64,000 bases of DNA from Flavobacteriales bacterium. GTDB taxonomy: Bacteria > Bacteroidota > Bacteroidia > M30B66. This document shows positions 5,278-35,522 of this stretch, one piece after another (position 1 is the stretch's first letter; every line of letters starts with the position of its first letter). Below the pieces are notes generated by a model, which saw only the letters and a list, made by a program, of their open reading frames with translations, made no database searches and was not told the origin of the DNA. Where the stretch lies: contig JBIPLZ010000421.1 of assembly GCA_044369395.1 (NCBI GenBank), forward strand, positions 24,847 to 88,846, read 5' to 3'. The position numbers were made by a program, and so were the translations under genes.

Positions 5278-6534
5278 TTAGGTCATCCAAACGTTAGTTT
5301 TTCCGTCTCTTGACGCATATTCGTAATTTTTAAATAACAAAGAAAAATCTTTGTATTTGTAAACAGTATTTCCGGGTACAGCTCCTGGAGGTAAAATATT
5401 AGTTACGTTGTCGTAAGCTTCTATAGGTGGAAAACCGTTATGGGTTATAAGTTTATAACTTTGACTTCCTTGTAAAACTCTAGCAACAGCACCGGGAAGT
5501 TTTAAATTAGTATCTTTAGAAACTGGAAAATGTTGTAAAAACCAATTATGACCTCTAGGTTCTGTAGTAGGCTGACTTGTATTAACTGCCCCCGGCTCAG
5601 GATCAAAAAACTTCATTTTAAAAGTGATGTCATAAAGACGTTGATCTTCTAACCATCGATAAGGTTTTAACTCTACATTAGTAAGAAGTAATTGACCTTT
5701 TTTTGCACCAAGTGCATCCCAATCATATAAATTTACAGAGCCAATATGTGTTTTAATTGCTGCTGGAATACCGGGAACTTTGTGATGTATTACAACAATT
5801 TCAGAAGCACTTACTATTTTACCCTGAGCTCCTTGAACCATAATACCTACTGGCTCTTTTGTTTTAGCATCTAACAGCGGAAGTCCGTTTTTATCAAACT
5901 CTACCCACTTGTAAGCACCAAAAGGTAAGGATAAAAATTCTGCGGTTGGTTGTTTAAATACAGTAGTAAATTGAGATAATTGATACTCATCTGGTGATAC
6001 AGATTGTGATCCAATAAGTGGTTCTACTCGATAAGTAACTGATTCATAATTAATAGTTATTCTTGCTATGTCATAATAAGATGTTTGTAGTTTTGATCCA
6101 CTGCCTAAACTGTCATATAATATTTGTTGACCTAAACATTCAATGCTTTCTAGTCCAGTAGCAACCATAAAACTTTTTGCTGCTCCACCATTTGGACCAC
6201 CGTTTGATCCGTAGTATACATAATATTGATCGGGTTTTTCTCTTACTATTGTGTTGTCTGTAGGTGTTCCATCAATTGTTGCTGTTCCAAGCATGTATTT
6301 TATAAAAACCCATCTTTGTGGATAAGGAACATCAAAAGTTCTACGAGCACGAAACGTATCACCAGTGTATGACTCTTGTGGAGATCCTGGTCTTTCGTAA
6401 TAAGTTACAGCTTCTGTTCTTGGTTCTGCGGGTGTATTTGGAAAAGCAGAAGCCACTTTATAATTAATAATTGCAACTGACATTTTAAACTCCTTAAGAG
6501 GATGCGCCCATAGGTATTTTGTTTTCTCGAACAC
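5278..6534 (-). CDS. hypothetical distal tail/baseplate protein (probable true start at 6483)
   Basis: 418-aa ORF directly downstream of the tape-measure-like gene. An internal Met (MSVAIINYK) at 6483 is preceded by AAGGAG on the minus strand and removes the overlap with the giant gene. Confidence 0.4.
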   Translation of the reverse strand: MFEKTKYLWAHPLKEFKMSVAIINYKVASAFPNTPAEPRTEAVTYYERPGSPQESYTGDTFRARRTFDVPYPQRWVFIKYMLGTATIDGTPTDNTIVREKPDQYYVYYGSNGGPNGGAAKSFMVATGLESIECLGQQILYDSLGSGSKLQTSYYDIARITINYESVTYRVEPLIGSQSVSPDEYQLSQFTTVFKQPTAEFLSLPFGAYKWVEFDKNGLPLLDAKTKEPVGIMVQGAQGKIVSASEIVVIHHKVPGIPAAIKTHIGSVNLYDWDALGAKKGQLLLTNVELKPYRWLEDQRLYDITFKMKFFDPEPGAVNTSQPTTEPRGHNWFLQHFPVSKDTNLKLPGAVARVLQGSQSYKLITHNGFPPIEAYDNVTNILPPGAVPGNTVYKYKDFSLLFKNYEYASRDGKTNVWMT

Positions 6535-20522: not shown

Positions 20523-21935
20523 CTACGCAATGTTGAGGTTGTCGCAAATTACAAATGATGCTTCATGACGAGGAGCTCCGTCACAATACATGATCCCTCG
20601 ATACCACGTTTGGTCGGTGGTAAACGGTGTATCACCTTGTGTACTGATTTGGAACTCGATAGCACCAGAAAGAGCAATCATATAATCGCTAAAGTCGCCA
20701 CCAAGGATATAGCTCAAGTTAGAAGAGCTACCCTTAGTTCTTGAACCGCTGATCTGGGTAGACTTGTAAACAGGGTTGCCATACAAGTTACCAGGAGTGG
20801 TTCGGCTGTAATCCATGTTCGTGTTTAGTTCACGGAACATGTTGAATACGAATGGACCCTTAGCGTCGTTAGCAACAACAGCATCAGACCTTCTGTTAGC
20901 AATTGCTGCGTAAAGAAGAGGACGCATAAGGAAGGATTTGAACTGTGCGTTCTGTTCTTCCACTTTCGCAATCATGTTTGCAATATCTTCTGGTTGAATG
21001 GTATCACCATTTGTTCCAGTTACCTTTGCAGTGTGACGGCTAATGTTTGCGTAGTTGATAAGACCTTTAGGTTCATTGCTTGAACCAGTTGCTTCCAACA
21101 ACGACTTGTCCAATCGAAGAGCAAGTACACGGCTGATATCCTCTCGCAAGAACATTTCAACCGAGACAGAGCTAAATCGGAAAAGTTCGTTTGGAACTTT
21201 GCACAAGATTCCGAGCTTCTTGGCTTGCAAGAGTACGTCACCAGTTGCAGGTGTTGAATCTTGAACTGCGTTGGATTCACCAACCCAGTAAGCTGTACCA
21301 GCGTTGGTTTGCCTTGGGAAAGTGATTCTGCCGTTTGGTGGCATAGCAATGGTGCGAGCACCAGCACTCATGAACACTTCGTTATTTCTAAGGAGTTCGA
21401 TAAGTTCGCCTTGGATTGGAGGGGCAACTAATGCACCGCCTTGACTTTCGTCAATCCACGACATAGCTTTTTGAACACCCCATTGTTTAGCACGAATGTT
21501 ACGAACTTCTTCACGGTCATAACCAGTAATGCCTGCGGTTACAATATCACGGATATCTTTAGCAAAGCCTTCTTCGCCGGGGATTTCAGCAATGTAATCG
21601 CTGCCAAAAGGAGCCATAATGGTGTTAGTGTGAGCTTTGTTGTAACCAAGACGGTCTACATAAAGCTTTTGAAGAGCTTGAGCGGTTTCCCATTCAACTC
21701 TTGCATTTTCGGGAGAGAGTTCGCCACGAAGAAGACCAAAAAGTTTTACGAAGCTATAGCCTCGCGAACTCATTGAGTTTTCACCTTTGCGAACTTGAGG
21801 AGCGTTAAGTACCGAGCTGTTCCTTGCGGACTTGCTGGTGCTTTCGATTTCACTCAGTTTGTTTTGAAACTTTGCCTGAGTTTCGGTAATGCTATTGATT
21901 GCATCAATAACAGGCTTAATGTTTTTCCCGGCCAT
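20523..21935 (-). CDS. major capsid protein, HK97 fold
   Basis: 470-aa ORF with characteristic HK97-family segments (GGALVAPPIQGELIELLRNNEVFMSAGARTIAMP; WYRGIMYCDG). It is flanked by the prohead protease and connector genes. Confidence 0.8.
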   Translation of the reverse strand: MAGKNIKPVIDAINSITETQAKFQNKLSEIESTSKSARNSSVLNAPQVRKGENSMSSRGYSFVKLFGLLRGELSPENARVEWETAQALQKLYVDRLGYNKAHTNTIMAPFGSDYIAEIPGEEGFAKDIRDIVTAGITGYDREEVRNIRAKQWGVQKAMSWIDESQGGALVAPPIQGELIELLRNNEVFMSAGARTIAMPPNGRITFPRQTNAGTAYWVGESNAVQDSTPATGDVLLQAKKLGILCKVPNELFRFSSVSVEMFLREDISRVLALRLDKSLLEATGSSNEPKGLINYANISRHTAKVTGTNGDTIQPEDIANMIAKVEEQNAQFKSFLMRPLLYAAIANRRSDAVVANDAKGPFVFNMFRELNTNMDYSRTTPGNLYGNPVYKSTQISGSRTKGSSSNLSYILGGDFSDYMIALSGAIEFQISTQGDTPFTTDQTWYRGIMYCDGAPRHEASFVICDNLNIA

Positions 21936-24287: not shown

Positions 24288-25628
24288 TTATCCTCTGTTG
24301 TCATTGGGCGATGATAAAGGTTGGCTAGAAGGAGGGTGTGTACCGCCCATAGGATTACTTGCAATGTTTACTGGAAGTATTGGGCTATCTCCCCAAGCAG
24401 TTGGGAATGGCTCTCTGCCACGCATAACACGAACTTCATTAGGAGTAATCGCACCACACATAAGATCGGTTTGAATTTGTTTTTCAGTAAGCTCTGGATC
24501 GTGCGGGGTAATGTCTTCCCACCAAACTTTTAAAGATTCATCATAACGATGAGCAATCTTTTCAGTAATTACTTGACCAAAGTATCGAAGAATAGGGTTA
24601 ATAGTTTGCTGCATAAATGCAGCTTGTGAAGCCATTACAGAGCCGTAGGTCATTTCTTTGTTAAGACCTGCTGCGGAAGCGGGTACACCAAACAAGGCTA
24701 AAATGTTATCTCGAATTTCTGTAGCGGTTTCACCAAAAAGCATTTCGTTAATCCCTAAAGACAAGGGGTTAACTGAAACTCCTGGAGGTAAAAACATTGG
24801 ACGGTTAGATCGAGTATCACCAGAGTAACGAGACATAAACTTAGCTTCAATACGGCGAAGATCTTCGTCACTAGGGTCTTGAAACTTTCCATCAAACTGT
24901 ACTGCAACAGTTGGAAACGTTCCGTTTTTATAAGAGTGCCAACGAGAGCGATTAATCATTTCAGCGGTATCGCCCCACTGTGCACCTGCCGTTAAAGGAG
25001 CGTAACCATCAATCTTTGAAATTGGGCTCTTATCTTTAAACACTACTATTTCTTCTATTGGAAGAAATTTCCTAAAGTAATTGCCTTCGATAGGACGAAT
25101 TTCATAGCCTTCGATAAGCTTGTCTTTGCCCACAATAGGCCACATCCAATGAGAAGGTACTACCCAGATTGCAGCAGGGAGACCAAGGTCGTTAAGAGGC
25201 ATCCACCAGTAAGCTATGCCAGTAAGGTGATGAAACATGATGGTTTCATACCAAAGGTCATAAGAGGTGTCGGGATCGTTAGGGTCTTTAAGGAGCCGAA
25301 GCAGGGGATGCTTGTTAGGTACTGGCTCAAGGTCTTCGTGAGAAAGCAAGGGAATAAGGGCTTTTTGTTTTAGAAAGTTATGACGGGGTGAGTTCATAGC
25401 GTGATGATAAGTCCACGAAACATTGGGTATTTGAGAAGCTACTTGTCTGGCAATTGCACGAATAGCGATGTAGATCCAATGTTTGAAGTTTCTAACCTGC
25501 TCAATGCGGGAATCTGTCCATGCTGAAACGTAAGGTAAAAAAGAAGGTCCGTAAGACAGCAACGTCGATAGATCCCTGTCTGAAGCTTGGTCAGGAGGGA
25601 GTCGTAATTTGCGTCTACGCTTTGCCAT
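24288..25628 (-). CDS. portal protein (HK97-type)
   Basis: 446-aa ORF immediately upstream of the protease. Its size and position in the portal-protease-capsid order support the call. Confidence 0.7.
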   Translation of the reverse strand: MAKRRRKLRLPPDQASDRDLSTLLSYGPSFLPYVSAWTDSRIEQVRNFKHWIYIAIRAIARQVASQIPNVSWTYHHAMNSPRHNFLKQKALIPLLSHEDLEPVPNKHPLLRLLKDPNDPDTSYDLWYETIMFHHLTGIAYWWMPLNDLGLPAAIWVVPSHWMWPIVGKDKLIEGYEIRPIEGNYFRKFLPIEEIVVFKDKSPISKIDGYAPLTAGAQWGDTAEMINRSRWHSYKNGTFPTVAVQFDGKFQDPSDEDLRRIEAKFMSRYSGDTRSNRPMFLPPGVSVNPLSLGINEMLFGETATEIRDNILALFGVPASAAGLNKEMTYGSVMASQAAFMQQTINPILRYFGQVITEKIAHRYDESLKVWWEDITPHDPELTEKQIQTDLMCGAITPNEVRVMRGREPFPTAWGDSPILPVNIASNPMGGTHPPSSQPLSSPNDNRG

Positions 25629-25655
25629 AGATTTACCCTATAATTAGAATCCTTA

Positions 25656-28382
25656 ATGTATGTATTATGCTTTAAATCTGTAAACGGTTCAATAGGAAAG
25701 GGAAAAGTTATGCTTGAATCTTATATGGAATCACTTTTTACTCCCAAAGACGGTAAAATTAAATCTTCTGATATACATAAAACTTTAACATCTATTATTA
25801 ATCTTCCTTCTAGTTTTACTCCTGAGTCATGGGATAAATGGCTAACTAGTTATGGAGGTAAAGCTAATATACCTAAACCTCTTTTAAAAATACTTGAAGG
25901 GGATCGTAGTGGTAGTAGGTCTGTAGAAATAAGAAAACTAATTACTGAATATGCAGACAGTATAAGAGTTGGAAGTTTTGAACAGGCTCTTGCTATAAAA
26001 AGTTTAAAAGAAGAAATTATTAAAGCTTTTGAAACAACTTTTAATGCAGAAGCTAGTCGCATACAAAGATACACATTAGCTAGAAAAAATAATTTGTTGT
26101 CTATTGCAGAAGAAAATACCATTTTAGGCACTAGTGTAATGCCTGCCTCTAAAGCAGCGGATCAAATTGCATTAATGGTTAAACGTGGTGATAGTTTATC
26201 TAACCTTAAATCATTTATAAATAGAGTAGGAGCAGGCAAAGACTTTATAGTAAATGTTATTAAAAAATTAAAAGATGATAAAAAAGAAGATATCGCAGCT
26301 TTGGTAGGACAAATGGATGCCAAAATAGGAGGTAGTTCTGATTACGAACTTAATCAATTATTAAAATCAATTGAAACAAAAGAAAAAGTAAAGGTTTTTA
26401 TAAGCACCTATTGCAGAACAGAAAGTATTATGAAGCTTATAGAAATGCTTTCTAGTGAGTCATCTTTTAAAGCTAAGACAGGTTTAGACATTTCTATTTT
26501 GCCAGGGATTTTAAATAACAGAAAAACATCTCAAAAAATAAAAGATTTAATATCAGATCAAATTCTTCATAACAATGGTTTTGATAAAGTAATAAAAGAA
26601 ACGGATATGCGTAATTTTATTTTAAACAAACAACAGGAGTTTATAAAAAAGGCAATTGACACCGGAAAACAACCTAGCATTAGAGTTTTAAAAGAAGCAA
26701 TTATTTCAAAAGTTCAATTAAAATTACAAGATAGATATGAAACATTATTGTCAGGGATTGTAGATAAAGGTTTAGTAGGGGCTGAATATTATAGTCAATT
26801 AACTTCAATGATAAACAATCATGTAATAAATGAGCTTTCTTTTATAAATGATTATGTAACTTATCCTACTAGAAAAATATTAGATAAAAATAATAACGAG
26901 ATAACAATTAATTCTCTTCACGTTGATAATGTTGTTTACCCAGAAAGGTTAAAAAGGTTTGGAGCTCCTAAAAAAACCAAAAAGCAAGAAGAGAGAGAAT
27001 CAGATACTGAGTTTTTAAAATTAACTGCTCTTATAAATACCCTGCCCCCAGAAATGAAAGTTGCTCAAAATTTAGTTAAATACAGCATTAAAGCTAAGAC
27101 TTTACAAAAATTACAAAGATTAAAGGCTGAAGGAAAACATTTAAATAAAAACTCAGACGATTTAAAAGAAAGCATTTTTAATGAACACGGACACATTGTA
27201 ATAGGTTCTTTATTTAAAAAAGCTTTAGAAGAGTTAGATGCAAAAACAAGCAGTCCTTATGCAAGCACTGTTTGCTTAAGAGCTATTTTATTTTTAGCTA
27301 AAGGGTCAGGTACTTGGCGGTCTAAACATGCTTATTTATACAAACAAATTTACGAAATGGCCGACAAGCTTCATGCTGCTGCTAAAGAGTCAGGAGTCAC
27401 ACTTGATCAGTTATTAGATCGTCGTCGATTAGAAGATAAAGATCCCGATGAAAATAAAGGACGTAGAAACGACGTAACAAGAGGTCATAGAAAAGATCCA
27501 GATTTTAGTAAAGCAGATTATTTAGACAGGTTACAAATTAGAAATTTGATGAGGGCTATTCCTAAACGGTCAAAAATTATCGGTGAGTATGCTCCACCTT
27601 ATGTTGATTCTAGGGGTAAACCTTTAAGCCCTGCAATTCAAAAACTGTTTGAAAGATACGTTAGTAATATGAAAACTAACGCAGTGTTTCAAAAAATGGT
27701 AGTTGATAACCCTAACGGTATTCATGGACTGTTTATTAATTATTTAACAAGTAAACACGGACAAAGACTGATTAATGATGAAATAGCATTTCGTTTAAAA
27801 GATGTAGATAAAGATCCAGAAGTAAGCAAAGCAATACTTGGGTATGAAAGAGTTTTGTACGGTTTACGCTATGAAAGAATTCAACAAAGTCTTGAAAGTT
27901 CTCTTGGTCATGTAGATAAAAATACTGGATTTTTCATTCCTCAAAAAAGAAGAAATCTGCTAAGTGGTGAAGCAAATAAAGCTGTTAATAAAACTGGACA
28001 ATTTGATGAAGCTAAAAAACAAGAGCTTATGGAAGCAGATAGCTCTGAAGATTATCTTTTTGGTATATCAAAAGTAATTCCACCAAATGTACAAGAAAAG
28101 TTTCAAGGATATTCTTTATTGGGAATGATACATGCTTCAGAATCAGAAGAAGAGCTTTCTATGGTCATGTCTCATATTCATACGTTAATTCCAAAAGATC
28201 ATTTAGATACACTTCAAGAAAACGCATCTGTAAAAATTAGTGATGTTCATTTAGAAAAGCAAACTGAACTAAACAAAAAAACAGAAACAGACCAACAAGA
28301 ATTTTTAAGAAAACAATCTTTAGCAAGGCAACAAGAAATACAGGGGTTAAATAACACTCCCGATGTAACTCGCGGCACTTAA
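25656..28382 (+). CDS. large Lys-rich hypothetical protein (AT-rich island); probable start 25710
   Basis: 908-aa ORF with a markedly lower GC than its neighbours. It has no recognisable motifs. It is followed by a hairpin at CCCCCGTATTAAAGGGG. Confidence 0.5.
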   Translation: MYVLCFKSVNGSIGKGKVMLESYMESLFTPKDGKIKSSDIHKTLTSIINLPSSFTPESWDKWLTSYGGKANIPKPLLKILEGDRSGSRSVEIRKLITEYADSIRVGSFEQALAIKSLKEEIIKAFETTFNAEASRIQRYTLARKNNLLSIAEENTILGTSVMPASKAADQIALMVKRGDSLSNLKSFINRVGAGKDFIVNVIKKLKDDKKEDIAALVGQMDAKIGGSSDYELNQLLKSIETKEKVKVFISTYCRTESIMKLIEMLSSESSFKAKTGLDISILPGILNNRKTSQKIKDLISDQILHNNGFDKVIKETDMRNFILNKQQEFIKKAIDTGKQPSIRVLKEAIISKVQLKLQDRYETLLSGIVDKGLVGAEYYSQLTSMINNHVINELSFINDYVTYPTRKILDKNNNEITINSLHVDNVVYPERLKRFGAPKKTKKQEERESDTEFLKLTALINTLPPEMKVAQNLVKYSIKAKTLQKLQRLKAEGKHLNKNSDDLKESIFNEHGHIVIGSLFKKALEELDAKTSSPYASTVCLRAILFLAKGSGTWRSKHAYLYKQIYEMADKLHAAAKESGVTLDQLLDRRRLEDKDPDENKGRRNDVTRGHRKDPDFSKADYLDRLQIRNLMRAIPKRSKIIGEYAPPYVDSRGKPLSPAIQKLFERYVSNMKTNAVFQKMVVDNPNGIHGLFINYLTSKHGQRLINDEIAFRLKDVDKDPEVSKAILGYERVLYGLRYERIQQSLESSLGHVDKNTGFFIPQKRRNLLSGEANKAVNKTGQFDEAKKQELMEADSSEDYLFGISKVIPPNVQEKFQGYSLLGMIHASESEEELSMVMSHIHTLIPKDHLDTLQENASVKISDVHLEKQTELNKKTETDQQEFLRKQSLARQQEIQGLNNTPDVTRGT

Positions 28383-28564
28383 AAACATTTTAACAACTGC
28401 CATTCTGGCAGAAAACTTTATTAGCCCCCCGTATTAAAGGGGAGCCCCGCCCTATTTGTACTCCTGTTTGTGTGGATGATTTAACACCCCCTACCCCTAT
28501 GTGCGTTATGAGTATGCGTGTTGTGTGCTCAGTGGGGTGTGTTGAATATTTAAAGGAGTCTGAG

Positions 28565-29017
28565 ATGAAGAGTAATGTTATTTTGATTTTGGTTTTATCT
28601 TTCAACATAGCACTCGGCATTTTGGCTGTTCGATACATAAATGAATGTTCAAAAAATATGCCTGAGGTTTGCACTGTTGCTAGTGTTGTAGCTACTGCTG
28701 ATTGGAATGATCAATTTAATGCTCCCGGTTGGACAGTATTTAAAACTACAGAGGGTGAAACAGTATTAAAAATTCACGGAAGTTCGGATGGTTATGTATG
28801 GTTTTATCCTAACAACAGTAGTTGTCCTTTAACTTTAGTGCTTAAAGAGTTAAAAGTAAAAATCACAAAAATTATCTGTTGTCATCCAGCAGTAGTTAAA
28901 GAACGAAGTAATGTTGATGTATCTTTCTTTCAAGAGACTCATCGTTCTTTTGTTTATGCGACTCTTAATATTGTTGAGGGAGAGAATGTTCGGGTTTATA
29001 ACAAAAACCCTAATTAG
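28565..29017 (+). CDS. signal-anchored Cys-containing membrane protein
   Basis: Starts MKSNVILILVLSFNIALGILAV after AAGGAGT. It is the first gene of the repeated promoter-like cassette region. Confidence 0.5.
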   Translation: MKSNVILILVLSFNIALGILAVRYINECSKNMPEVCTVASVVATADWNDQFNAPGWTVFKTTEGETVLKIHGSSDGYVWFYPNNSSCPLTLVLKELKVKITKIICCHPAVVKERSNVDVSFFQETHRSFVYATLNIVEGENVRVYNKNPN

Positions 29018-29150
29018 CAGAGGACACTCCGAAAAGGGTGTAATGCACTACTTAATCTGATCTAGGTTAGGTAACGGTTCCAAGTCCGAGCATATATGGC
29101 TATCTCACTTTGAGGTAGCTGTTTTCGTTTCTAGATCAAGGAGTTTAGTT
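29018..29150 (+). promoter_or_regulatory. repeated intergenic cassette, copy A (post-stop hairpin, conserved AACGGTTCCAAGTCCG box, GCTGTTTT box, AAGGAGT RBS)
   Basis: About 75% identical to copy B at 29293-29419. Confidence 0.5.
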
Positions 29151-29294
29151 ATGGATAATAATATCGTTGGTCAAATTGCATACTTCACAGTTTGTTTTGC
29201 AGTTTTGGTGGTGCTGTTTACTCCTGTTAATGTCTGGTTGTTGGAAAAAATGTTTGCGGTATTAGACAAAGTTTTTATGACTCCAAAAAACTAG
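29151..29294 (+). CDS. small hydrophobic membrane protein (47 aa)
   Basis: MDNNIVGQIAYFTVCFAVLVVLFTPVNVWLLEKMFAVLDKVFMTPKN. Preceded by AAGGAGTTTAGTT-ATG. It is too short for the ORF track. It is flanked by the repeated ~130-bp elements. Confidence 0.45.
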   Translation: MDNNIVGQIAYFTVCFAVLVVLFTPVNVWLLEKMFAVLDKVFMTPKN

Positions 29295-29419
29295 CAGAGG
29301 ACACCTTCGGGTGTAATGCACTATGAAGGCTAGACTTCATAACGGTTCCAAGTCCGGCATATACAGTCATGCTCATGTTGAGTGTGGCTGTTTTTGTTTC
29401 TAGATTAAGGAGTTTTACG
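29293..29419 (+). promoter_or_regulatory. repeated intergenic cassette, copy B (UUCG-tetraloop hairpin GACACC-TTCG-GGTGTA)
   Basis: Shares GCAGAGGACAC, GGTGTAATGCACTA, AACGGTTCCAAGTCCG, GGCTGTTTTTGTTTCTAGAT and AAGGAGTT with copy A. Confidence 0.5.
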
Positions 29420-30034
29420 ATGGCTAATGTTAACTTTTGTGTTGTATGTGGTTCTGAAGTTCTTACCGGTGTTGATGCTGGTGAGGCTTTTGCTATTGGG
29501 TATTGCGAGTGTATCGCAGTGCCAGAAGTTGATGTTTTTGTTTTGGAGGATACTGATATGCCTTGTTGTGTTCCAGATAACAAAACATTCATTTTTTGTA
29601 GCGATTGCGGACATGAGGGAAGTAATCCTTGCAACTGTAAGGGAGTTACAATAGAAGACGAAGAATTCATCTACGTCTATGAAGAAGCAGAGGTTCTTGC
29701 TGCTTCTGTTGGTTGTCAATCATGTAATCAAGCTGCTTGTAAAGGGCCTAATGAACGTGGATACTGTCTTGAGTATTACGACTACGAAAACGAAAAAGCA
29801 CTTCGGAAGTTTCAAGGATTAGAGGAGGATGACCCAGAACCACAGGTAGAAAAAGTTCGCTCCTTTTATGAAGAAGCGTTTTTAATGTTGGCAATCTTGA
29901 CTAGTTTCTTTCGTCTTCTGTATGCCATCTCAACAGGGAAAGTTAATGATCCTTCCTTGGTCATTGCGTGGTATGCGTTTTGCGGTTACTTGATCTTGTC
30001 TTATACCGCAGTCATTCTGTGGTTTGTACTTTAA
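29420..30034 (+). CDS. Cys-rich zinc-binding protein with C-terminal transmembrane anchor
   Basis: MANVNFCVVCGSE...CCVPDNKTFIFCSDCGHEGSNPCNCKG plus C-terminal hydrophobic helices. Preceded by AAGGAGTTTTACG-ATG. Confidence 0.5.
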   Translation: MANVNFCVVCGSEVLTGVDAGEAFAIGYCECIAVPEVDVFVLEDTDMPCCVPDNKTFIFCSDCGHEGSNPCNCKGVTIEDEEFIYVYEEAEVLAASVGCQSCNQAACKGPNERGYCLEYYDYENEKALRKFQGLEEDDPEPQVEKVRSFYEEAFLMLAILTSFFRLLYAISTGKVNDPSLVIAWYAFCGYLILSYTAVILWFVL

Positions 30035-30039
30035 ATAAT

Positions 30040-30177
30040 TTTGACTTAGCTGATAGGCAGCTTGGGAGTTCGACGCTCTCACTAAGTCTTTGATCTGAAC
30101 TATCACGGATCTTGCAGTCATCTACGCTCTTGTAGGTGGCTGTTTTAATTGATAGCTACTCTAAAGGAGTATTGGTT
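30040..30177 (+). promoter_or_regulatory. third upstream element sharing the GGTGGCTGTTTT box and AAGGAGTATTGGTT RBS
   Basis: Partial similarity to copies A and B in the proximal 40 nt. Confidence 0.35.
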
Positions 30178-30444
30178 ATGGCTAATTGTATTTGTGGGTG
30201 TAAACGACCAGTTGAGCAACGGTGCGGTACTGAAGAGTATCTTGATGACGTTGGAGCTTGTAACATTTGCAACGCTCCATGTTTCGGTTACATCTGCACT
30301 CGTTGCGAAACTCTAGAGATAGAGTTGTGTAAAAAACAGGAAGAGGAAATGTTGGAAGTTATGAGAAATGATTTAATTGATCCAATCTTAGATTTTCTTG
30401 ATCCTGACAATATTGAAAATCGTCGAATACAAAATAACGATTAA
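30178..30444 (+). CDS. small Cys-rich zinc-ribbon protein
   Basis: MANCICGCKRPVEQRCG...CNICNAPCFGYICTRCE. Preceded by AAGGAGTATTGGTT-ATG. Confidence 0.5.
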   Translation: MANCICGCKRPVEQRCGTEEYLDDVGACNICNAPCFGYICTRCETLEIELCKKQEEEMLEVMRNDLIDPILDFLDPDNIENRRIQNND

Positions 30445-30470
30445 TAATTAGTTTAGTTGATTTTTCTAAA

Positions 30471-30503
30471 GCTCATGCGTGTTGCATGGGCTTGTTCTGT
30501 TTA
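30471..30503 (+). terminator. intrinsic terminator-like hairpin 1 (GCTCATGC-GTGTT-GCATGGGC then U-rich)
   Basis: 8-bp stem, GTGTT loop, followed by TTGTTCTGTTTA. Confidence 0.5.
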
Positions 30504-30506
30504 TAG

Positions 30507-30538
30507 CCTCTGCGTGTTGCAGGGGTTTGTTCTTTTTA
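30507..30538 (+). terminator. intrinsic terminator-like hairpin 2 (CCTCTGC-GTGTT-GCAGGGG then TTTGTTCTTTTT)
   Basis: Same loop as hairpin 1, with compensatory stem changes. Confidence 0.55.
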
Positions 30539-30554
30539 TACATAGGAGTTTGAT

Positions 30555-33404
30555 ATGTCATTATGGAATTACAGATTGCCAGCAATTGTTTGTTATAAAG
30601 ATAAGCAGCACATTGCTTACCGATTTACCAAGGGAGGAGTGAAAGTAAAGCTCCTTTCTTGGAAAGAAAAGTTTTCGGAGTCGTTCTTCAAAGCTGTTGG
30701 TACTCCTGATAAGAACAGTACCAATGTGATGAATGAACTTGAGGTTAAGACCTTCAACGGTCACGACTACTTCAAAGTAGAAGGCATTGTATTCTCCTGT
30801 TCGACAGGAGATGTAATGAAAGATAACAACATCATTAAGTTGTTTGATGGTGTTGAACTTACCGAAGGTACAGCTCTTAGAGAAGACCCTGAGAACGGGT
30901 TTTATAAGGGTATGTACAACGCTCATGCTCATAAGCGTCATTTAGAAGACAAACAAGCAGGTATTGTGCCTGCTGTTCCAACTACTACAGCACCAGCTTC
31001 GGTGTCTGTGGAGGTGTTTACTCAAGAACCTATAAAGGAGGTAGATAGAGTGAAGCAACATATTCAGCACTTGCTTGATACAGAACGGATCAAGGAGTTG
31101 AGCAGTAACACAAAGGTAAAGGGAGTCTACGGCAGGGATTATCATATGATCCGTGCTGTATCCAAAGGTAGGGCCTATAGGGTCTTCACAATGGACAAGG
31201 GCAAAGATTGCAAAGAAATCCTTCACGCTATGGAGGGCTTCTTAATAATTGCAGTCAACAAACCCGATACCGTATTATTTGCAGTGTCTGAAGAACCCAC
31301 TACGTTCTTAGCGTGGTTCAAGGATTTCGGCTTTGGGATCAAGAAAGGGCCAAAGCTTAGTAAACGGTTATCGCAATTCATTAGACCCTATCTAATGTTT
31401 GCAAGTTTTGGTCCAAAGATTTTTAACATTAAGATCTTAACCAAAGAAAATTGGTCGGGTGATTTCCGCACTGTTGACGGTGCAAATATCATAAGCACAA
31501 GAGCCTTTCGGTTTTTACTCGCAGTAACCGTAGGTAATCTTATAAAAGCCGGTGATCAAGAAGCTGCTGATCTCATTCAGCAGATGGGCGAAGAAAACGT
31601 TGTATTCAACGGCAGGCTTTGGTTGCCAGGATATGGATTCATCAAGGGTCAGTTCTTTGTCTCTCCTTTCATCAAGGAAGATTTTGTTATCCACGAGGGT
31701 AACATCAAGGATGAGATCCGAGTAAATTGTCCATACGCATACCTTGGTATGGACCCACAGCCCGGTAAACTTTCACTCGAGTCAAACGGTCAGGGGTGTA
31801 ACAACTTCCCACCACCGTTTGGGATTGGTCACGGTGTAAAAGTTGCTGATAGCTTGTTGTACAAGAATGTTGTCAAAGCTTGTGATAAAGCTTTAGAACG
31901 TCTTAAGACTGGCAAGCTTGAGACATCTCTCAAAGACCTCTTGATCTTGTTGCAAAACAACTTGATTGAGGAGAGTGAGACTACCAAGGGAAGACTTAAC
32001 CTTGCTCACTGGAGTGAGTTTGATTCTCCTAAATCTAACCCTGCATTGTTTGGCAGGGAAGCTAAAGATGGTCTACGTCGCATGGTTGACTTAGATGAGC
32101 TTAACATCAATGTCAAAGTTGATGGTGGCACATATTGCCAAACAGTTTCAGAGTCAGTAATGGCTTTGATTGGTGTGCCTACTATCATTGAGAAGGGTAC
32201 TGTCCAATACAATTCTCGGTGGATGGTTTACGTCATGAATGACGAGGACTACATTGCTAACCTCCCCAACCATGGTGGTCCTGACATGGACGATAAGTTC
32301 TGTCAGATACTAATGCGACAAGAAGGTTTTGATGGCATTCGATGCTTTATGTATCGGAATCCATCCGACAGGGGTGAGTACAATGTACTTACCTTCAAGG
32401 GTGAGCCACCTGTTAAAATCAGCGAAGTCATCTTACCAGCTAAGATGCCTCTTAAGCTAACCGAGCGGGATTGGAAGTTGCCAGAAGTTCCATCGGCTAC
32501 AAGGCCGAAAGTAGTTTACGTTGATGCAGATTATGCCATCGACGAGTTTTACAAAGAGCTCGATCTAGAGGGTGCAAACCCTGGATTGGGTATCAACGTA
32601 GGCAGCTTGTGGAACGCTTCTAACCCTGACGTGTCGCTTAGAAATAAGCACATGCCTAGCAATGAAGCTCAGGTTGACTCTACCGTTCAGCTTAAAGACG
32701 GTGTTGATATCGTCTTTATCAAAGGCTGCATGGTGAAAACTATGAAGGAGGTTCTTCAATCTACTTGGATGGTCGATCACCGCAGGTTGCGCAACGTCAA
32801 GAAGATGTTCAAGGATGACGCTCACTACAACTCTTGGGTTGCAAAACTCAAGAAGCAAGGCCGTCTTCCCGAAGCTGGCAACTGGTGGACTCGTCTAGTT
32901 ACTGAGTGTGACAAGGTGGTTAAAACCACTATTGAGAAGATTGACCAGACTATCGAGTCAGTCAGACTTCGTAACAATTACAACCTTATCAGCCCTACAC
33001 CTCTTAATGCTTCACAGCTTGAGATGGTTGCTAGGTATGTCTCCAAGATGATGCGTGTTCAAGGTGCGTGTGGTCGCACACCAGAGACTCGCAACACCGG
33101 ACTTAGAAATGCTAAGGACAGCATCACCCAGAAAGGCCACGAATGGATCGCCAAGGGTATGAAAGAACACTTCAACACCCTGTGTGATAAATTCGCAGCA
33201 TGGGGACTGGTTGAGCAAGACGGGGTCAAACTCAGCAGAACTCCTGTTCGTGTTGCTATTGCAATAGCGCACGTAGTTAACAACCACTCCTTCGTAGGTA
33301 GAGAAAACCCAATCGTCACGGATTGGCTAATGGATCGTAAGGAATACTTCAACACCTACTTGAGTATCCTTAAGACCTACAAGAAGGTTACTGCTACTAA
33401 GTAG
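30555..33404 (+). CDS. large hypothetical protein (949 aa)
   Basis: Long ORF with RBS AGGAG. It is preceded by tandem terminator-like hairpins. It contains a KVDGG motif but no convincing family assignment. Confidence 0.5.
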   Translation: MSLWNYRLPAIVCYKDKQHIAYRFTKGGVKVKLLSWKEKFSESFFKAVGTPDKNSTNVMNELEVKTFNGHDYFKVEGIVFSCSTGDVMKDNNIIKLFDGVELTEGTALREDPENGFYKGMYNAHAHKRHLEDKQAGIVPAVPTTTAPASVSVEVFTQEPIKEVDRVKQHIQHLLDTERIKELSSNTKVKGVYGRDYHMIRAVSKGRAYRVFTMDKGKDCKEILHAMEGFLIIAVNKPDTVLFAVSEEPTTFLAWFKDFGFGIKKGPKLSKRLSQFIRPYLMFASFGPKIFNIKILTKENWSGDFRTVDGANIISTRAFRFLLAVTVGNLIKAGDQEAADLIQQMGEENVVFNGRLWLPGYGFIKGQFFVSPFIKEDFVIHEGNIKDEIRVNCPYAYLGMDPQPGKLSLESNGQGCNNFPPPFGIGHGVKVADSLLYKNVVKACDKALERLKTGKLETSLKDLLILLQNNLIEESETTKGRLNLAHWSEFDSPKSNPALFGREAKDGLRRMVDLDELNINVKVDGGTYCQTVSESVMALIGVPTIIEKGTVQYNSRWMVYVMNDEDYIANLPNHGGPDMDDKFCQILMRQEGFDGIRCFMYRNPSDRGEYNVLTFKGEPPVKISEVILPAKMPLKLTERDWKLPEVPSATRPKVVYVDADYAIDEFYKELDLEGANPGLGINVGSLWNASNPDVSLRNKHMPSNEAQVDSTVQLKDGVDIVFIKGCMVKTMKEVLQSTWMVDHRRLRNVKKMFKDDAHYNSWVAKLKKQGRLPEAGNWWTRLVTECDKVVKTTIEKIDQTIESVRLRNNYNLISPTPLNASQLEMVARYVSKMMRVQGACGRTPETRNTGLRNAKDSITQKGHEWIAKGMKEHFNTLCDKFAAWGLVEQDGVKLSRTPVRVAIAIAHVVNNHSFVGRENPIVTDWLMDRKEYFNTYLSILKTYKKVTATK

Positions 33405-33552
33405 CAGATAGTCTCTCTCACTTCTAATCTCCTCGCAAGGCTTCGCGGGATAGTCTTTGGCTCGGAACAAGGCCTTCGCTCGGAAGCCTCGCTCAGTCCA
33501 ACCAAGCAAAACACACGGACAGTAGTAGTCTCTCTAGCATGGTAGCGGTAGT

Positions 33553-33561
33553 GGTGTGGGG
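33553..33561 (+). promoter_or_regulatory. GGTGTGGGG intergenic motif, copy 1 (CGGTAGTGGTGTGGGGA)
   Basis: Exact 9-mer. The 17-mer is shared with copy 2. Confidence 0.4.
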
Positions 33562-33572
33562 AATAGAGGCAT

Positions 33573-34151: not shown

Positions 34152-34391
34152 ATGGGCATCTACATAGCCCGTTTCCACACAGATTTACTAGTAGAAGACT
34201 ATCCCACTCCTTACGGAGTGGGTGAATACAACGAAGCAGTAGCCTATGTGGAAGACTACTGCAATCGCATAAAAGGAATCGAGCCCCGCTTCGATCTCGT
34301 TCTCTATACCGGAGATGGCAGAGAATATGAACGAGCCAGTATTGAATACTGGAAAAAATACCTTCCTAATCCTCTTCACCCTCAAGGGTGA
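34152..34391 (+). CDS. hypothetical protein
   Basis: 79-aa ORF. Its stop lies inside the intrinsic-terminator hairpin. Confidence 0.4.
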   Translation: MGIYIARFHTDLLVEDYPTPYGVGEYNEAVAYVEDYCNRIKGIEPRFDLVLYTGDGREYERASIEYWKKYLPNPLHPQG

Positions 34392-34406
34392 TGGGGATTT
34401 TTTTTA
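34377..34406 (+). terminator. rho-independent terminator
   Basis: TCACCC-TCAA-GGGTGA stem-loop followed by TGGGGATTTTTTTT. Confidence 0.6.
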
Positions 34407-34517
34407 AAAACCCTGTCGCACTTCGTGCCCACTTTATATTATCCGCTCCCTGTCGCTCGCTCCCTCAGGAGGTAAGCCAATGCTGTTAGTGGTACTTCAA
34501 GTAACCGTGCCGGTAGT

Positions 34518-34526
34518 GGTGTGGGG
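34518..34526 (+). promoter_or_regulatory. GGTGTGGGG motif, copy 2 (CGGTAGTGGTGTGGGGA)
   Basis: Exact 9-mer, upstream of the 34586 gene. Confidence 0.4.
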
Positions 34527-34585
34527 ATACTACCACGCTGTTGTGCGTAAGATCCTATAACTCATCCTATCTAAGGAGTATTCGC

Positions 34586-35131
34586 ATGTTGACTAACGTA
34601 CAAGGACTTATTAACGAACTAACTACCTATCAGATTAATGAAGGGTACAAGCTCGGGGGCAAGGGCCCTGCTATGAAAAAGCTTGCTGGAACTATCAAGG
34701 AGATCTTTCCAAGCTTATCTGATGCAGACAAAGGAATCTTTCTTGCAACAGTAGGAAGAGGCAGGTTCGCAATCAACAAAGACATATGGGATATGTTTTG
34801 CGAAGCTGTAGGCATCGAAGCCCCTGCACCAACACCTACACCAGCTCCTGCTACACTAGCACCGCAGACAAACAAGGTTGCGGGCGAGATCTTGGAGCAT
34901 GTCAAGGGGCACTTGGTAGCCATCAACTTGCTAGACAAGGCTATGGAAGCACAGTTGAATACCATGGATCGTCAAGCTGAAAAACTTGACTCTCACCAAG
35001 CTATCCTACAAAGCTTAGTAGGCATGGTTAGCGACCTACAAAAGCAAGTTGCTGAACTCAAGAAGCCTGCTTCACCCCGAAGAGGAGCAAGAGCTAAAGT
35101 CGAAGACAGTATCGAGCTTGCTTCCGTGTAA
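34586..35131 (+). CDS. hypothetical two-domain protein with APAPTPTPAPA linker
   Basis: Starts MLTNVQGL after AAGGAGTATTCGC. Followed by a strong intrinsic terminator. Confidence 0.45.
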   Translation: MLTNVQGLINELTTYQINEGYKLGGKGPAMKKLAGTIKEIFPSLSDADKGIFLATVGRGRFAINKDIWDMFCEAVGIEAPAPTPTPAPATLAPQTNKVAGEILEHVKGHLVAINLLDKAMEAQLNTMDRQAEKLDSHQAILQSLVGMVSDLQKQVAELKKPASPRRGARAKVEDSIELASV

Positions 35132-35139
35132 ACCAAAAG

Positions 35140-35171
35140 CCTCTACCCGAAAGGGTAGGGGTTTCTTTTTT
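35140..35171 (+). terminator. rho-independent terminator
   Basis: CCTCTACCC-GAAA-GGGTAGGGG then TTTCTTTTTT. Confidence 0.7.
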
Positions 35172-35268
35172 AGAAAACCCTGTCCTCGCTACGCTCGCTC
35201 TGGATTCGTACGCAGTCGTTCCTCCTGCGGGCAATTGGCAAACGCTAGTCGCTGTTACCCCCTGTCTT

Positions 35269-35277
35269 GGTGTGGGG
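35269..35277 (+). promoter_or_regulatory. GGTGTGGGG motif, copy 3 (TTGGTGTGGGGTTTC)
   Basis: Exact 9-mer in a long non-coding region. Confidence 0.35.
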
Positions 35278-35456
35278 TTTCCAACCTTTGGCAAACCACC
35301 ACGGACTTCTAGCGGAAAAAGAAGACAGTATAAAAGGATCTCAATGTCCTTAATGTAACAAGATGGTGGGGAAAAGGTTATGGGGAACTAACTTCATTTC
35401 CTAAATTACCTACTTTATCACATCTTTTACGCTGTTTTTCCGTGTGTGGCGGTTTC

Positions 35457-35465
35457 GGTGTGGGG
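35457..35465 (+). promoter_or_regulatory. GGTGTGGGG motif, copy 4 (TCGGTGTGGGGCTT), next to a GCTGTTTTT box
   Basis: Exact 9-mer, about 60 nt upstream of the 35523 start. Confidence 0.35.
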
Positions 35466-35522
35466 CTTTACGTCGATGCGTACTGCCCTTTTTCGTTTCC
35501 AGTTCTTGTAAAGGAGGTAGTT

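What the first reader, a model, noticed from the sequence alone, without database searches (positions are those of the whole stretch)
28383..30555. Early-region cassette system: repeated ~130-bp intergenic elements with stop-codon-abutting tetraloop hairpins driving small Cys-rich and membrane genes
Four small genes (28565, 29151, 29420, 30178) are each preceded by a long non-coding element. Copies at 29018-29150 and 29293-29419 are clearly homologous. Each begins exactly at the upstream TAG stop with GCAGAGGACAC, then a hairpin: GACACTCC-GAAAA-GGGTGT in copy A and GACACC-TTCG-GGTGT (a UUCG tetraloop) in copy B. Compensatory changes preserve the stem. Both then share AACGGTTCCAAGTCCG, GGCTGTTTT(C/T)GTTTCTAGAT and the RBS AAGGAGTT. 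A third element (30040-30177) and the region before 35523 share the GCTGTTTT box. This looks like a reiterated processing-site or terminator plus promoter unit, reminiscent of T7 RNase III sites and promoters. It suggests a dedicated early transcription programme, possibly read by a non-host sigma or polymerase. The products are tiny membrane-anchored and zinc-ribbon proteins, the kind typically involved in host takeover.
Basis: seen in the sequence. Interest (0 to 1): 0.6.

Follow-up and report, generated by a model that had tools for sequence, protein, structure and literature searches.

The report
Twister ribozymes between phage early genes
The two repeated "intergenic elements" are self-cleaving twister ribozymes that sit between small genes of an uncultured phage and most likely cut the long early messenger RNA into single-gene pieces; this is a known RNA class in a known kind of neighbourhood, and here it shows a clear layout.

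Summary
Copies A (29015-29150) and B (29292-29419) are homologous, strand-specific structured elements.

Their 5' halves are type-P5 twister self-cleaving ribozymes. They are the two best Rfam hits in the window (28.1 and 27.2 bits), below the curated cut-off of 37.6. Their two departures from the consensus are compensatory pairs in pseudoknots T1 and T2. Covariation in over 130 viral relatives supports every helix.

Predicted cuts are at 29041|29042 and 29314|29315. They would release the 47-codon gene as a 273-nt RNA.

In 249 relatives, 75% abut an upstream stop codon and 83% precede a ribosome-binding site and start codon. Some phage contigs carry 12 or more copies.

The 3' halves are a separate module, also found in elements C and E: a G·U-rich leader hairpin, a U-rich tract, a tail and the ribosome-binding site. 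Its role is unresolved. I found no promoter.

Element C carries a tRNA-like three-way junction instead of a twister.

The next gene (30555-33404) is predicted to be a QDE-1-like RNA polymerase.

This is a new member of a known kind.

The parts
29017..29088 (+). Twister ribozyme A, type P5. P2 is 29017-19 with 29044-46. The L1 strand GAGGA is 29020-24. P1 hairpin is 29025-40. UAA is 29041-43. The T2 strand AC is 29047-48. P3 is 29050-72. P4 is 29075-77 with 29086-88, and its loop UUCCAAGU is 29078-85.
   Evidence: Rfam Twister-P5 hit at 29016-29089, 28.1 bits. My own model R1 also hits it. The helix and pseudoknot assignments rest on covariation in relatives.
29041..29042 (+). Predicted self-cleavage site A, U|A. 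The upstream product would end in the P1 hairpin with a 2',3'-cyclic phosphate. The downstream product would start with 5'-OH-AAUGCAC.
   Evidence: Position of the conserved P1-UAA-P2 junction in the Rfam alignment. That twister cleaves at this U^A is established knowledge of the class. It was not tested here.
29294..29356 (+). Twister ribozyme B, type P5. P2 is 29294-96 with 29317-19. GAGGA is 29297-301. P1 is 29302-13 with a UUCG loop. UAA is 29314-16. AC is 29320-21. P3 is 29323-40. P4 is 29343-45 with 29354-56, and its loop is 29346-53.
   Evidence: Rfam Twister-P5 hit at 29293-29357, 27.2 bits. R1 gives 24.6 bits, E 9e-5.
29314..29315 (+). Predicted self-cleavage site B, U|A. Together with site A it would excise a 273-nt RNA, 29042-29314, carrying the 47-codon gene.
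   Evidence: Same basis as site A. The coordinates were read.
29096..29143 (+). Leader module A. A 12-bp G·U-rich hairpin is at 29096-29122. An interrupted U-tract is at 29123-32. The tail CUAGAUCA at 29131-38 is complementary to the P3 loop UGAUCUAG at 29058-65. The ribosome-binding site AAGGAG is at 29138-43.
29363..29412 (+). Leader module B. A 13-bp hairpin is at 29363-29391. The U-tract follows. The tail UCUAG at 29399-403 is complementary to the P3 loop CUAGA at 29330-34. The ribosome-binding site is at 29407-12.
30043..30088 (+). Element C, 5' module: a three-way junction that resembles a tRNA without an anticodon arm. The acceptor-like stem is 30043-49 with 30082-88. The D-like hairpin GCUG-AUAGG-CAGC is 30049-61. 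The T-arm-like hairpin GGGAG-UUCGACG-CUCUC is 30064-80.
   Evidence: Model R2 finds 8 copies, counting the window's own, in the window and five related contigs. Six of 17 pairs show compensatory changes. ARAGORN finds no tRNA and Rfam gives no hit.
30092..30169 (+). Element C, leader module. Hairpin X is 30092-30111, with loop CUAUCA at 30100-05. The 13-bp leader hairpin is 30114-30143. The tail UGAUAG at 30150-55 is complementary to that loop. The ribosome-binding site is 30164-69.
30469..30527 (+). Element E: two tandem hairpins, 30469-93 and 30505-27, with an invariant apical GCGUGUUGC and U-rich tails. They lie just before the polymerase gene.
   Evidence: The same hairpin type occurs in L001, L013, L045, L100 and L120 and, by reading the sequence, in L009.
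28383..28564 (+). Element D: a conserved structured leader before the 150-aa gene. It is neither a twister nor a tRNA-like element. A C-rich strand at 28481-97 can pair with the G-rich strand at about 28533-47, enclosing an E-like hairpin.
   Evidence: Fold z-score -3.89. Conserved in L001, L009 and L013 and in L045 and L109. The motif occurs once in the window.
28565..30444 (+). The four small genes: 28565-29017 (150 aa, N-terminal transmembrane segment), 29151-29294 (47 aa, transmembrane), 29420-30034 (204 aa, Cys-rich with C-terminal transmembrane helices) and 30178-30444 (88 aa, Cys-rich).
   Evidence: ORFs. tblastn finds homologues in related contigs. Pfam and PHROGs give no match.
30555..33404 (+). 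A 949-aa protein predicted to be a single-subunit two-barrel RNA polymerase of the QDE-1/RDR type. It is context, not part of the repeats.
   Evidence: AlphaFold2 model with pLDDT 78.8 and pTM 0.70. Foldseek against PDB matches maize RDR2 (E 5.5e-9), QDE-1 (E 2e-8 to 1e-6) and a phage gp64 RNA polymerase (8f72_B, E 8e-6).

Best explanation
Each of copies A and B is a composite 5' leader made of two modules.

Module 1 is a type-P5 twister self-cleaving ribozyme. It begins with the last base of the upstream TAG stop codon. The small genes are transcribed as one + strand early polycistronic RNA; which polymerase makes it is inferred below. Each ribozyme then folds and cuts itself at U|A (29041|29042 and 29314|29315).
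- The upstream cistron keeps its stop codon. It ends about 25 nt later in the P1 hairpin with a 2',3'-cyclic phosphate, which is a protected 3' end.
- The downstream cistron starts with a 5'-hydroxyl followed by the compact P3/P4 remnant. This would uncouple its stability and translation from those of its neighbours.
- The two cuts would release the 47-codon membrane-peptide gene as a 273-nt RNA.

Module 2 lies between the ribozyme and the start codon. It consists of a conserved 12-13 bp G·U-rich hairpin, an interrupted U-tract, a short tail that pairs with the loop of the preceding hairpin, and a strong ribosome-binding site. It is a shared leader of small early genes in this phage group, and it occurs with or without a ribozyme. 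I infer that it acts as a leaky terminator or attenuator, or as a 5' stabiliser or common regulatory operator. The evidence does not decide between these.

Because the units are repeated, they also serve as recombination points through which small genes are gained and lost.

What is shown: the twister identity and architecture, the intercistronic placement, the strand-specific structure, the modularity and the cassette indel.

What is inferred: actual cleavage, transcription by the host polymerase, the effects on RNA stability and translation, and the role of module 2.
For: Twister identity:
- The two elements are the top two Rfam hits in the whole window, both to Twister-P5 over the full model.
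- All conserved strands are present: GCAGAGG(A), UAAUGC and GGU(U)CCAAG(U)CC.
- The two departures from the consensus are paired. In 130 distinct viral twisters, GAGG[G] goes with U[C]CC 83 times and GAGG[A] goes with U[U]CC 46 times, with 1 exception. The base after UAAUGC covaries with AAG[C/U].
- On 138 distinct sequences, 96.1% of cells pair against 65.5% in shuffles. The covariation score is 0.716 against 0.169 in shuffles, and at most 0.106 when partners are slid. T1 and T2 are included.
- Of 211 distinct P1 inserts, 86% have at least 4 terminal pairs, against 2.6% when shuffled.
- 108 distinct cores of the same A-U variant occur in metagenomes.

Placement:
- 178 of 236 relatives have an ORF ending within 15 nt upstream (control 8.7%).
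- 199 of 240 have a ribosome-binding site plus ORF start downstream, at a median of 31 nt (control 38%).
- Arrays of 12 or more copies occur on single contigs.

Cassette behaviour:
- L120 is 90-96% identical to 28756-30708 but lacks one unit plus the 47-aa gene.
- The same unit precedes different genes in relatives.

Module 2:
- Long perfect hairpins with T-rich tails number 21 on the + strand and 2 on the - strand, and they cluster here.
- In 21 of 22 CAGCYA-type copies the hairpin sits 12-24 nt before a ribosome-binding site (30 nt in one L216 copy), and its apical part covaries.
- Loop-tail complementarity of 5-8 bp is present in 15 of 15 units, in three sequence versions.

Literature: twister and other ribozymes are known to lie near phage genes, and processing of polycistronic RNAs has been suggested (PMC6765202 section 13; PMC4604425).
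Against: - Both hits are below Rfam's gathering score (28.1 and 27.2 against 37.6). The long P3 insert and short P1 account for much of the gap.
- P2 is only 3 bp, and P1 of copy B is only 4 bp.
- No cleavage, transcript or host data exist for this uncultured phage.
- The biological role of bacterial and phage twisters is unresolved in the literature, so the stability and translation consequences are conjecture.
- If module 2 hairpins are efficient terminators, the downstream genes would need antitermination or their own promoters. I found neither.
- The loop-tail pairing rests on related sequences and short helices.
Confidence: 0.8

Rival explanations
1. Each unit is an RNase III-type processing site or terminator followed by a promoter, as in the T7 early region. 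The promoter would be read by a phage-specific sigma factor or by the phage RNA polymerase.
For: - Hairpins followed by U-rich tracts are enriched in 25-38 kb: 28 against 9.7 expected.
- A TTGNNN-16/17-TAGNTN pattern can be read in several copies.
- The phage encodes its own RNA polymerase just downstream.
Against: - The first hairpin is 4-5 bp and lies inside a complete twister core. That is far too short for RNase III.
- The putative -10 abuts the ribosome-binding site, so transcripts would lack the conserved AAGGAG.
- L216 copies keep the hairpin but not the TTG.
- G·U pairs make the structure specific to the + strand RNA.
- The boxes do not recur upstream of other genes in the window.
Confidence: 0.07
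2. The main function lies in module 2 acting as an intrinsic terminator. The units would be attenuators that grade or delay expression along the operon and delay the polymerase gene. The ribozyme would only trim the terminated RNAs, releasing a ribozyme-remnant fragment of about 80-90 nt.
For: - The hairpins score as terminator-like, with 12-13 bp stems followed by U-rich tracts, in five intergenic sites before the polymerase gene.
- They occur without ribozymes too.
Against: - The U-tracts are interrupted (UUUCGUUUCU).
- The stems are G·U-rich.
- Spacing to the next ribosome-binding site is held within about 12-24 nt, which a terminator does not need.
- The canonical terminators of the same phages look different: they have uninterrupted U runs and no ribosome-binding site after them.
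- Most twisters elsewhere have no such hairpin and lead straight to a ribosome-binding site.
Confidence: 0.25
3. The repeats are chiefly selfish or recombinogenic DNA. They would be a PeSL-like mobile regulatory cassette that shuffles small ORFs, and the ribozyme would be inactive or incidental.
For: - The unit-plus-gene indel relative to L120.
- Mosaic combinations of P1, P3 and hairpin variants among relatives.
- The same unit lies in front of different genes.
Against: - Every catalytic-core position is conserved.
- Helices and both pseudoknots are maintained by compensatory change across hundreds of divergent copies. This indicates selection on the folded RNA, not only on DNA homology.
- The two roles are not exclusive.
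Confidence: 0.1

Closest known systems
Twister self-cleaving ribozyme, type P5 (Rfam RF02684; Roth et al. 2014, cited from memory)
   Same: It has the same conserved strands, the same P1/P2/P4 helices with an optional P3, both pseudoknots and the same circular permutation. It lies near phage genes, as reported for the class (PMC6765202, PMC4604425).
   Different: It scores below Rfam's cut-off. It carries A-U instead of G-C at one pair of T1 and one pair of T2, and a long P3. It is fused to a conserved leader hairpin, tail and ribosome-binding-site module. Two copies in tandem bracket a 47-codon gene.
PeSLs: composite promoter-terminator motifs that mediate modular shuffling in T4-type phages (PMC2839356, PMC4122927)
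   Same: These are repeated regulatory units of about 100 nt that contain a stem-loop and flank small, variable early ORFs. Indels between close relatives are bounded by the repeats.
   Different: PeSLs are defined by an early promoter plus a terminator stem-loop. Here I found no promoter, and the unit carries a ribozyme. The phage lineage is unrelated.
T7 early-region RNase III processing sites
   Same: They are intercistronic cuts in a polycistronic early RNA that leave a hairpin at the 3' end of the upstream message.
   Different: The cut here would be made by the RNA itself, leaving 5'-OH and cyclic-phosphate ends. It would not be made by RNase III acting on a duplex of about 20 bp.
tRNA punctuation, plant mitochondrial t-elements and MALAT1 mascRNA (from memory)
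   Same: Element C has an acceptor-like stem, a D-like arm with GG in its loop and a T-arm with the GUUCRANNC pattern, placed between two cistrons. In those known systems RNase P or RNase Z cuts at such mimics.
   Different: It has no anticodon arm and no CCA. tRNA finders do not recognise it. Cleavage by RNase P is only an inference.
Tornado circular-RNA expression system: RNA flanked by twister ribozymes and ligated by RtcB (from memory)
   Same: An RNA segment flanked by two twisters would acquire 5'-OH and 2',3'-cyclic-phosphate ends.
   Different: Tornado is engineered and uses differently permuted twisters. No evidence exists for circles here.

Membership tests
Twister ribozyme (type P5) | Conserved core strands: GCAGAGG(G), UAAUGC and GGUCCCAAGCCC-like | tested here: met
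   Both copies carry GCAGAGGA, UAAUGC and GGUUCCAAGUCC. The two differences from the consensus are covarying pseudoknot positions.
Twister ribozyme (type P5) | Helices P1, P2 and P4 (P3 optional) supported by covariation | tested here: met
   96.1% of cells pair against 65.5% in shuffles, and every helix has changes on both sides. The 211 P1 inserts and 49 P4 flank combinations pair. The window's copies fit the same scheme.
Twister ribozyme (type P5) | Double pseudoknot T1 and T2 | tested here: met
   In T1, G-C occurs 83 times and A-U 46 times against 1 exception. T2 shows A-U, G-C and G-U pairs and almost no A-C. On alignment A7, T1 is 99% paired and the first T2 pair is 92.7% paired.
Twister ribozyme (type P5) | Score at or above Rfam's gathering threshold | tested here: not met
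   28.1 and 27.2 bits against 37.6. The long P3 insertion is modelled as an insert, and the short P1 also loses score. The threshold is a curation cut-off, not a structural feature.
Twister ribozyme (type P5) | Site-specific self-cleavage at the U^A of the P1-P2 internal loop | not testable with these tools
   This needs in vitro transcription or end mapping.
PeSL-type mobile regulatory cassette | Early promoter next to a terminator stem-loop | tested here: not met
   The consensus scan finds no sigma-70-like site in the units. The TTG...TAG resemblance is inconsistent with use of the ribosome-binding site and is not conserved in L216.
PeSL-type mobile regulatory cassette | Repeats bound the indels of small ORFs between close relatives | tested here: met
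   L120 compared with the window: one unit plus the 47-aa gene is present or absent.
Intrinsic terminator (module 2 hairpins) | G+C-rich stem directly followed by a U-tract at the end of a transcription unit | tested here: inconclusive
   The pattern scan accepts them. However, the U-tracts are interrupted, the stems are G·U-rich, and each is followed 12-24 nt later by a ribosome-binding site. The canonical terminators at 35137, 37115 and 52134 do not look like this.
RNase III processing site (T7 R-site type) | Duplex of about two helical turns, often with an internal loop at the cut | tested here: not met
   P1 is 4-5 bp. The leader hairpins are 12-13 bp perfect stems with 3-nt loops.
tRNA or tRNA-like element (element C) | Cloverleaf recognised by tRNA finders; acceptor stem, D-arm, T-arm and anticodon arm | tested here: not met
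   ARAGORN finds nothing at normal or lowered thresholds, apart from a spurious call that reuses the T-arm. The acceptor-like, D-like and T-like helices are supported by covariation, but there is no anticodon arm.

The most novel reading that the evidence does not exclude
In tandem arrays of type-P5 twisters, every RNA segment released by two neighbouring ribozymes carries two half-ribozymes. Its 5' end holds the 3' part of one twister (5'-OH-AAUGC, P3, P4). Its 3' end holds the 5' part of the next twister (GCAGAGGA, P1, U with a cyclic phosphate).

The cores are identical, so the two halves could reassemble into a complete twister that is nicked exactly at the scissile bond, with the gene sitting in the P5 position. 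The ribozyme's reverse reaction, or the host ligase RtcB, could then seal the nick. The result would be small circular, exonuclease-resistant mRNAs. Here that would be a 273-nt circle encoding the 47-aa membrane peptide.

If so, the arrays of 12 or more twisters on other phage contigs would be natural circular-mRNA factories.
Probability: 0.06. Interest if true: 0.85.

Novelty: new member of a known kind. Interest (0 to 1): 0.42.

Why it matters
The biological role of twister and other small self-cleaving ribozymes in bacteria and phages has been open since their discovery; reviews call it "elusive".

This locus and its relatives give a concrete and testable picture:
- The ribozyme starts at or overlaps the stop codon of one gene.
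- It ends a few tens of nucleotides before the ribosome-binding site of the next gene.
- It can be repeated a dozen times along one phage operon.

That layout fits a role as built-in punctuation that turns a polycistronic early RNA into single-gene messages with defined, protected ends.

In the same operon another intergenic space holds a tRNA-like junction instead, which points the same way. Standard annotation would miss both ribozyme copies because they score below Rfam's threshold.

The repeated units also appear to be the joints at which small host-takeover genes are swapped.

Tried and rejected
- **tRNA or tmRNA.** ARAGORN finds none in the window. For element C only a spurious low-threshold call appears.
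- **Rfam at gathering thresholds.** Nothing in the window.
- **Other ribozyme or RAGATH families in elements C, D, E and in 33.3-38.3 kb.** No hit at E of 10 or less (28300-30600) or 5 or less (33.3-38.3 kb).
- **Sigma-70 promoters inside the units.** None in the scan. I rejected the manual TTG/TAG reading because of its position relative to the ribosome-binding site and its loss in L216.
- **N4-type hairpin promoters for a virion RNA polymerase.** Rejected. The 3134-aa ORF matches tail lysin and tape-measure families, not a polymerase. The hairpins are also + strand-specific because of G·U pairs.
- **Known phage relatives.** No blastn or tblastn match in 50,697 phage records. A peptide-word search with the 949-aa protein found nothing in viral contigs.
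- **GCTGTTTT box as a genome-wide motif.** Not enriched.
- **UUGACACCCCCUACCCC (element D) and the element E apical motif as repeated promoters.** Each is confined to its own site.
- **PDB sequence searches for the 908-aa and 949-aa proteins.** Nothing useful. The fold search was needed.
- **Host assignment.** The twister variant occurs in only 1 of 185,579 species genomes, a Clostridiaceae MAG. The host stays unknown.

Full report
**Setting.** The window is an uncultured tailed phage.
- Genes identified by family matches: HK97-type capsid (20523-21935, -), portal (24288-25628, -), large terminase, family-A DNA polymerase, helicase-primase, ribonucleotide reductase and a methyltransferase.
- The 3134-aa ORF matches tail lysin and tape-measure families, not a polymerase.
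- There is no nucleotide or protein match in 50,697 deposited phage genomes.
- The finding lies at the start of a long + strand block, from 25656 to about 52100. That block begins at a divergent junction with the portal gene. The best sigma-70-like site of the region lies there (TTGCCA-17-TAGAAT, 25622-25650). The block ends at a canonical terminator at 52134.

**Observation.**
- Copies A and B share long exact blocks. AACGGTTCCAAGTCCG occurs exactly twice in the window.
- Both copies fold significantly better than shuffles on the + strand only, because the stems hold many G·U pairs.
- The third element (C) and the two flanking elements (D, E) share only parts of the 3' half.
- The "GCTGTTTT box" is not enriched in the window, and the site before 35523 is at chance level.

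**Identity of the 5' halves.**
- A permissive Rfam scan of the region matches the type-P5 twister ribozyme over its full length at 29016-29089 (28.1 bits) and 29293-29357 (27.2 bits). These are also the two best hits of any family in the whole window. They fall below the curated cut-off of 37.6.
GCA/UGC is P2. The "stop-abutting tetraloop hairpin" is P1. UAA between P1 and P2 holds the scissile U|A. "Hairpin 2" is the optional P3. CGG-UUCCAAGU-CCG is P4 with the loop that forms the two pseudoknots.
- The two copies differ from the consensus at four positions: GAGGG becomes GAGGA, UCCC becomes UUCC, GC becomes AC and AAGC becomes AAGU. If the pseudoknots are real, these are two G-C to A-U swaps.
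- I tested this on 130 distinct viral twisters retrieved with a pattern left degenerate at those positions. G goes with C 83 times and A goes with U 46 times, with one exception. The base after UAAUGC pairs with AAG[C/U] as A-U, G-C or G-U and almost never as A-C.
- A covariance model built from nine P3-less relatives found 157 copies in 100 loci. On 138 distinct sequences, 96.1% of cells pair against 65.5% in shuffles. The covariation score is 0.716 against 0.169 in shuffles, and at most 0.106 with slid partners. Every helix, including T1 and T2, shows changes on both sides.
- A metagenome scan for the exact A-U variant returned 110 loci with 108 distinct cores. P1 can be any sequence but nearly always pairs.
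- With filters off, the model finds only these two copies in the window.
- I therefore regard the twister identity as established by sequence and covariation. Cleavage itself is untested.

**Placement.** The following counts cover 249 distinct type-P5 copies.
- 178 of 236 have an ORF of at least 40 codons ending within 15 nt upstream. The commonest arrangement, as here, is a TAG whose G is the first ribozyme base. The control rate is 8.7%.
- 199 of 240 are followed by a ribosome-binding site and an ORF start, at a median of 31 nt. The control rate is 38%.
- Some contigs carry arrays: at least 12 in L186 and L197, 13 in L006.
- The variant is almost absent from bacterial genomes: 1 hit in 185,579 species genomes.
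- In this permutation the upstream product keeps its stop codon and ends in the P1 hairpin. The downstream product starts with a 5'-OH.
- In the window the two cuts would free a 273-nt RNA carrying the 47-codon membrane-peptide gene. That gene has a homologue in L066.

**Cassette behaviour.**
- Related contigs share homologues of the 908-, 150-, 204-, 88- and 949-aa proteins. They carry the same unit in front of different genes. L066 has four units punctuating small genes.
- L120 is 90-96% identical to 28756-30708 but has a single unit and no 47-aa gene. This is an indel of exactly one unit plus its gene.
- P1, P3 and hairpin variants are combined mosaically among copies.
- This resembles the PeSL cassettes of T4-type phages (PMC2839356, PMC4122927), but without a promoter.

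**The 3' halves (module 2).**
- Long perfect hairpins with T-rich tails number 21 on the + strand and 2 on the - strand. They cluster at 29096, 29363, 30114, 30469 and 30505.
- Across relatives the A/B/C type keeps the stem base CAGCYA...URGCUG, while the apical part covaries. The U-tract is interrupted. In 21 of 22 such copies the hairpin lies 12-24 nt before a ribosome-binding site (30 nt in one L216 copy), with or without a twister. The canonical terminators of the same phages have uninterrupted U runs and no following ribosome-binding site.
- In L216 the hairpin is kept but the TTG that could mimic a -35 is lost, so the conserved feature is RNA structure.
- The loop of the preceding hairpin (P3, or hairpin X in element C) is complementary to the 5-8 nt just before the ribosome-binding site in 15 of 15 units. 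Three sequence versions occur: CUAG with CUAG, CUAUCA with UGAUAG, and CUACC with GGUAG. This suggests a pseudoknot enclosing the leader hairpin.
- GCAU(U), complementary to the cleavage-site strand AAUGC, follows P4 in 27 of 50 P3-containing twisters but in only 5 of 58 without P3. It may sequester the new 5' end.
- The function of module 2 is unresolved. Candidates are a leaky terminator, a 5' stabiliser, or an operator for a common regulator.

**Element C.**
- Its 5' part is a three-way junction found in 8 copies, counting the window's own, across the window and five related contigs. Six of 17 pairs show compensatory changes.
- It looks like a tRNA without an anticodon arm. It has a 7-bp acceptor-like stem, a 4-bp D-like stem with GG in its loop, and a T-arm, GGGAG-UUCGAYG-CUCCC, with the G53-T54-Ψ55-C56-R57-A58...C61 pattern.
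- tRNA finders and Rfam do not recognise it.
- I infer, with low to moderate confidence, that it is cut by RNase P or RNase Z. It would then be a second kind of intercistronic punctuation.

**Context.** The 949-aa gene after the array gives a confident AlphaFold2 model (the alignment is). Foldseek matches maize RDR2 (E 5.5e-9), QDE-1 (E 2e-8 to 1e-6) and a phage gp64 RNA polymerase (8f72_B, E 8e-6). The phage therefore very likely encodes its own RNA polymerase. That makes the small genes upstream plausible early genes read by the host enzyme. Nothing ties the repeats to this polymerase.

**Comparison with the literature.** Twister, hammerhead, pistol and hatchet ribozymes are known to cluster near phage genes. 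Processing of polycistronic RNAs has been suggested, and the function is called elusive (PMC6765202 section 13; PMC4604425; PMC8782182). My full-text searches found no paper describing twister arrays in phage operons, but the searchable library is incomplete.

**Verdict.** The elements are new members of the twister class, in a clear and testable arrangement.

Noticed in passing
window 30555-33404 (+): The 949-aa protein has no Pfam, PHROG or PDB sequence match. It gives a confident AlphaFold2 model whose best PDB fold matches are the two-barrel RNA polymerases maize RDR2 (E 5.5e-9), QDE-1 (E 2e-8 to 1e-6) and a phage gp64 RNA polymerase (8f72_B, E 8e-6). HGGxDxDDK at 573-581 is invariant in 12 homologues and may be the metal-binding loop.
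   Followed up: partly
window 30043-30088 (+); also L066:3271-3329 and 3842-3900, L045:5496-5554(-) and 6291-6350(-), L126:2222-2280, L216:6742-6800(-), L120:1068-1126: A conserved three-way-junction RNA resembles a tRNA without an anticodon arm. It has an acceptor-like stem, a D-like arm with GG in its loop and a T-arm with the GUUCGAYGC pattern. It lies between cistrons, and 6 of 17 pairs are compensatory. It is in no Rfam family and is a candidate RNase P/Z site.
   Followed up: partly
L186, L197, L006, L170, L135, L213 (viral contigs): Arrays of 6 to 13 or more type-P5 twisters lie on one strand within 8-13 kb, about one per kilobase, each between small ORFs.
   Followed up: partly
L120 (Ga0049080_10027286) against window 28756-30708: This contig is 90-96% identical to the window but lacks one twister unit plus the 47-aa gene. 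Its homologue of the 88-aa gene is extended at the N-terminus.
   Followed up: yes
window 30469-30493 and 30505-30527 (+): Two tandem hairpins with an invariant apical GCGUGUUGC and covarying stems lie directly before the polymerase gene. The same hairpin type precedes genes in L001, L009, L013, L045, L100 and L120. Its role is unknown.
   Followed up: partly
window 28383-28564 (+): This is a conserved structured leader before the 150-aa gene. It contains CCCCCGUAUUAAAGGGG, and UUAACACCCCCUACCCC can pair with GGGGUGUGUUG. It is present in L001, L009, L013, L045 and L109. It has no conserved -10 element and no Rfam hit.
   Followed up: partly
window 33405-33572, 34392-34586, 35132-35522 (+): Three long G+C-rich intergenic regions in the same operon contain repeated motifs. 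CGGTAGTGGTGTGGGGA occurs at 33546 and 34511. A terminator followed by AAAACCCTGTC occurs at 34378 and 35145. Rfam gives no hit.
   Followed up: no
metagenome twister loci from the scan, analysed: GCAU(U), the complement of the cleavage-site strand AAUGC, follows P4 within 14 nt in 27 of 50 P3-containing twisters and in 5 of 58 without P3. In one clade (e.g. L030, L057, L114) it is the full 7-nt complement GUGCAUU.
   Followed up: partly
window 6494-15898 (-): A 3134-aa ORF has A+T-rich, strongly skewed composition. Only its C-terminal 450 residues or so match tail lysin and tape-measure families.
   Followed up: no
window 25656-28382 (+): This 908-aa first gene of the + strand block has about 30% G+C and no family or PDB match. 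It is conserved at 26-28% identity in related contigs.
   Followed up: no
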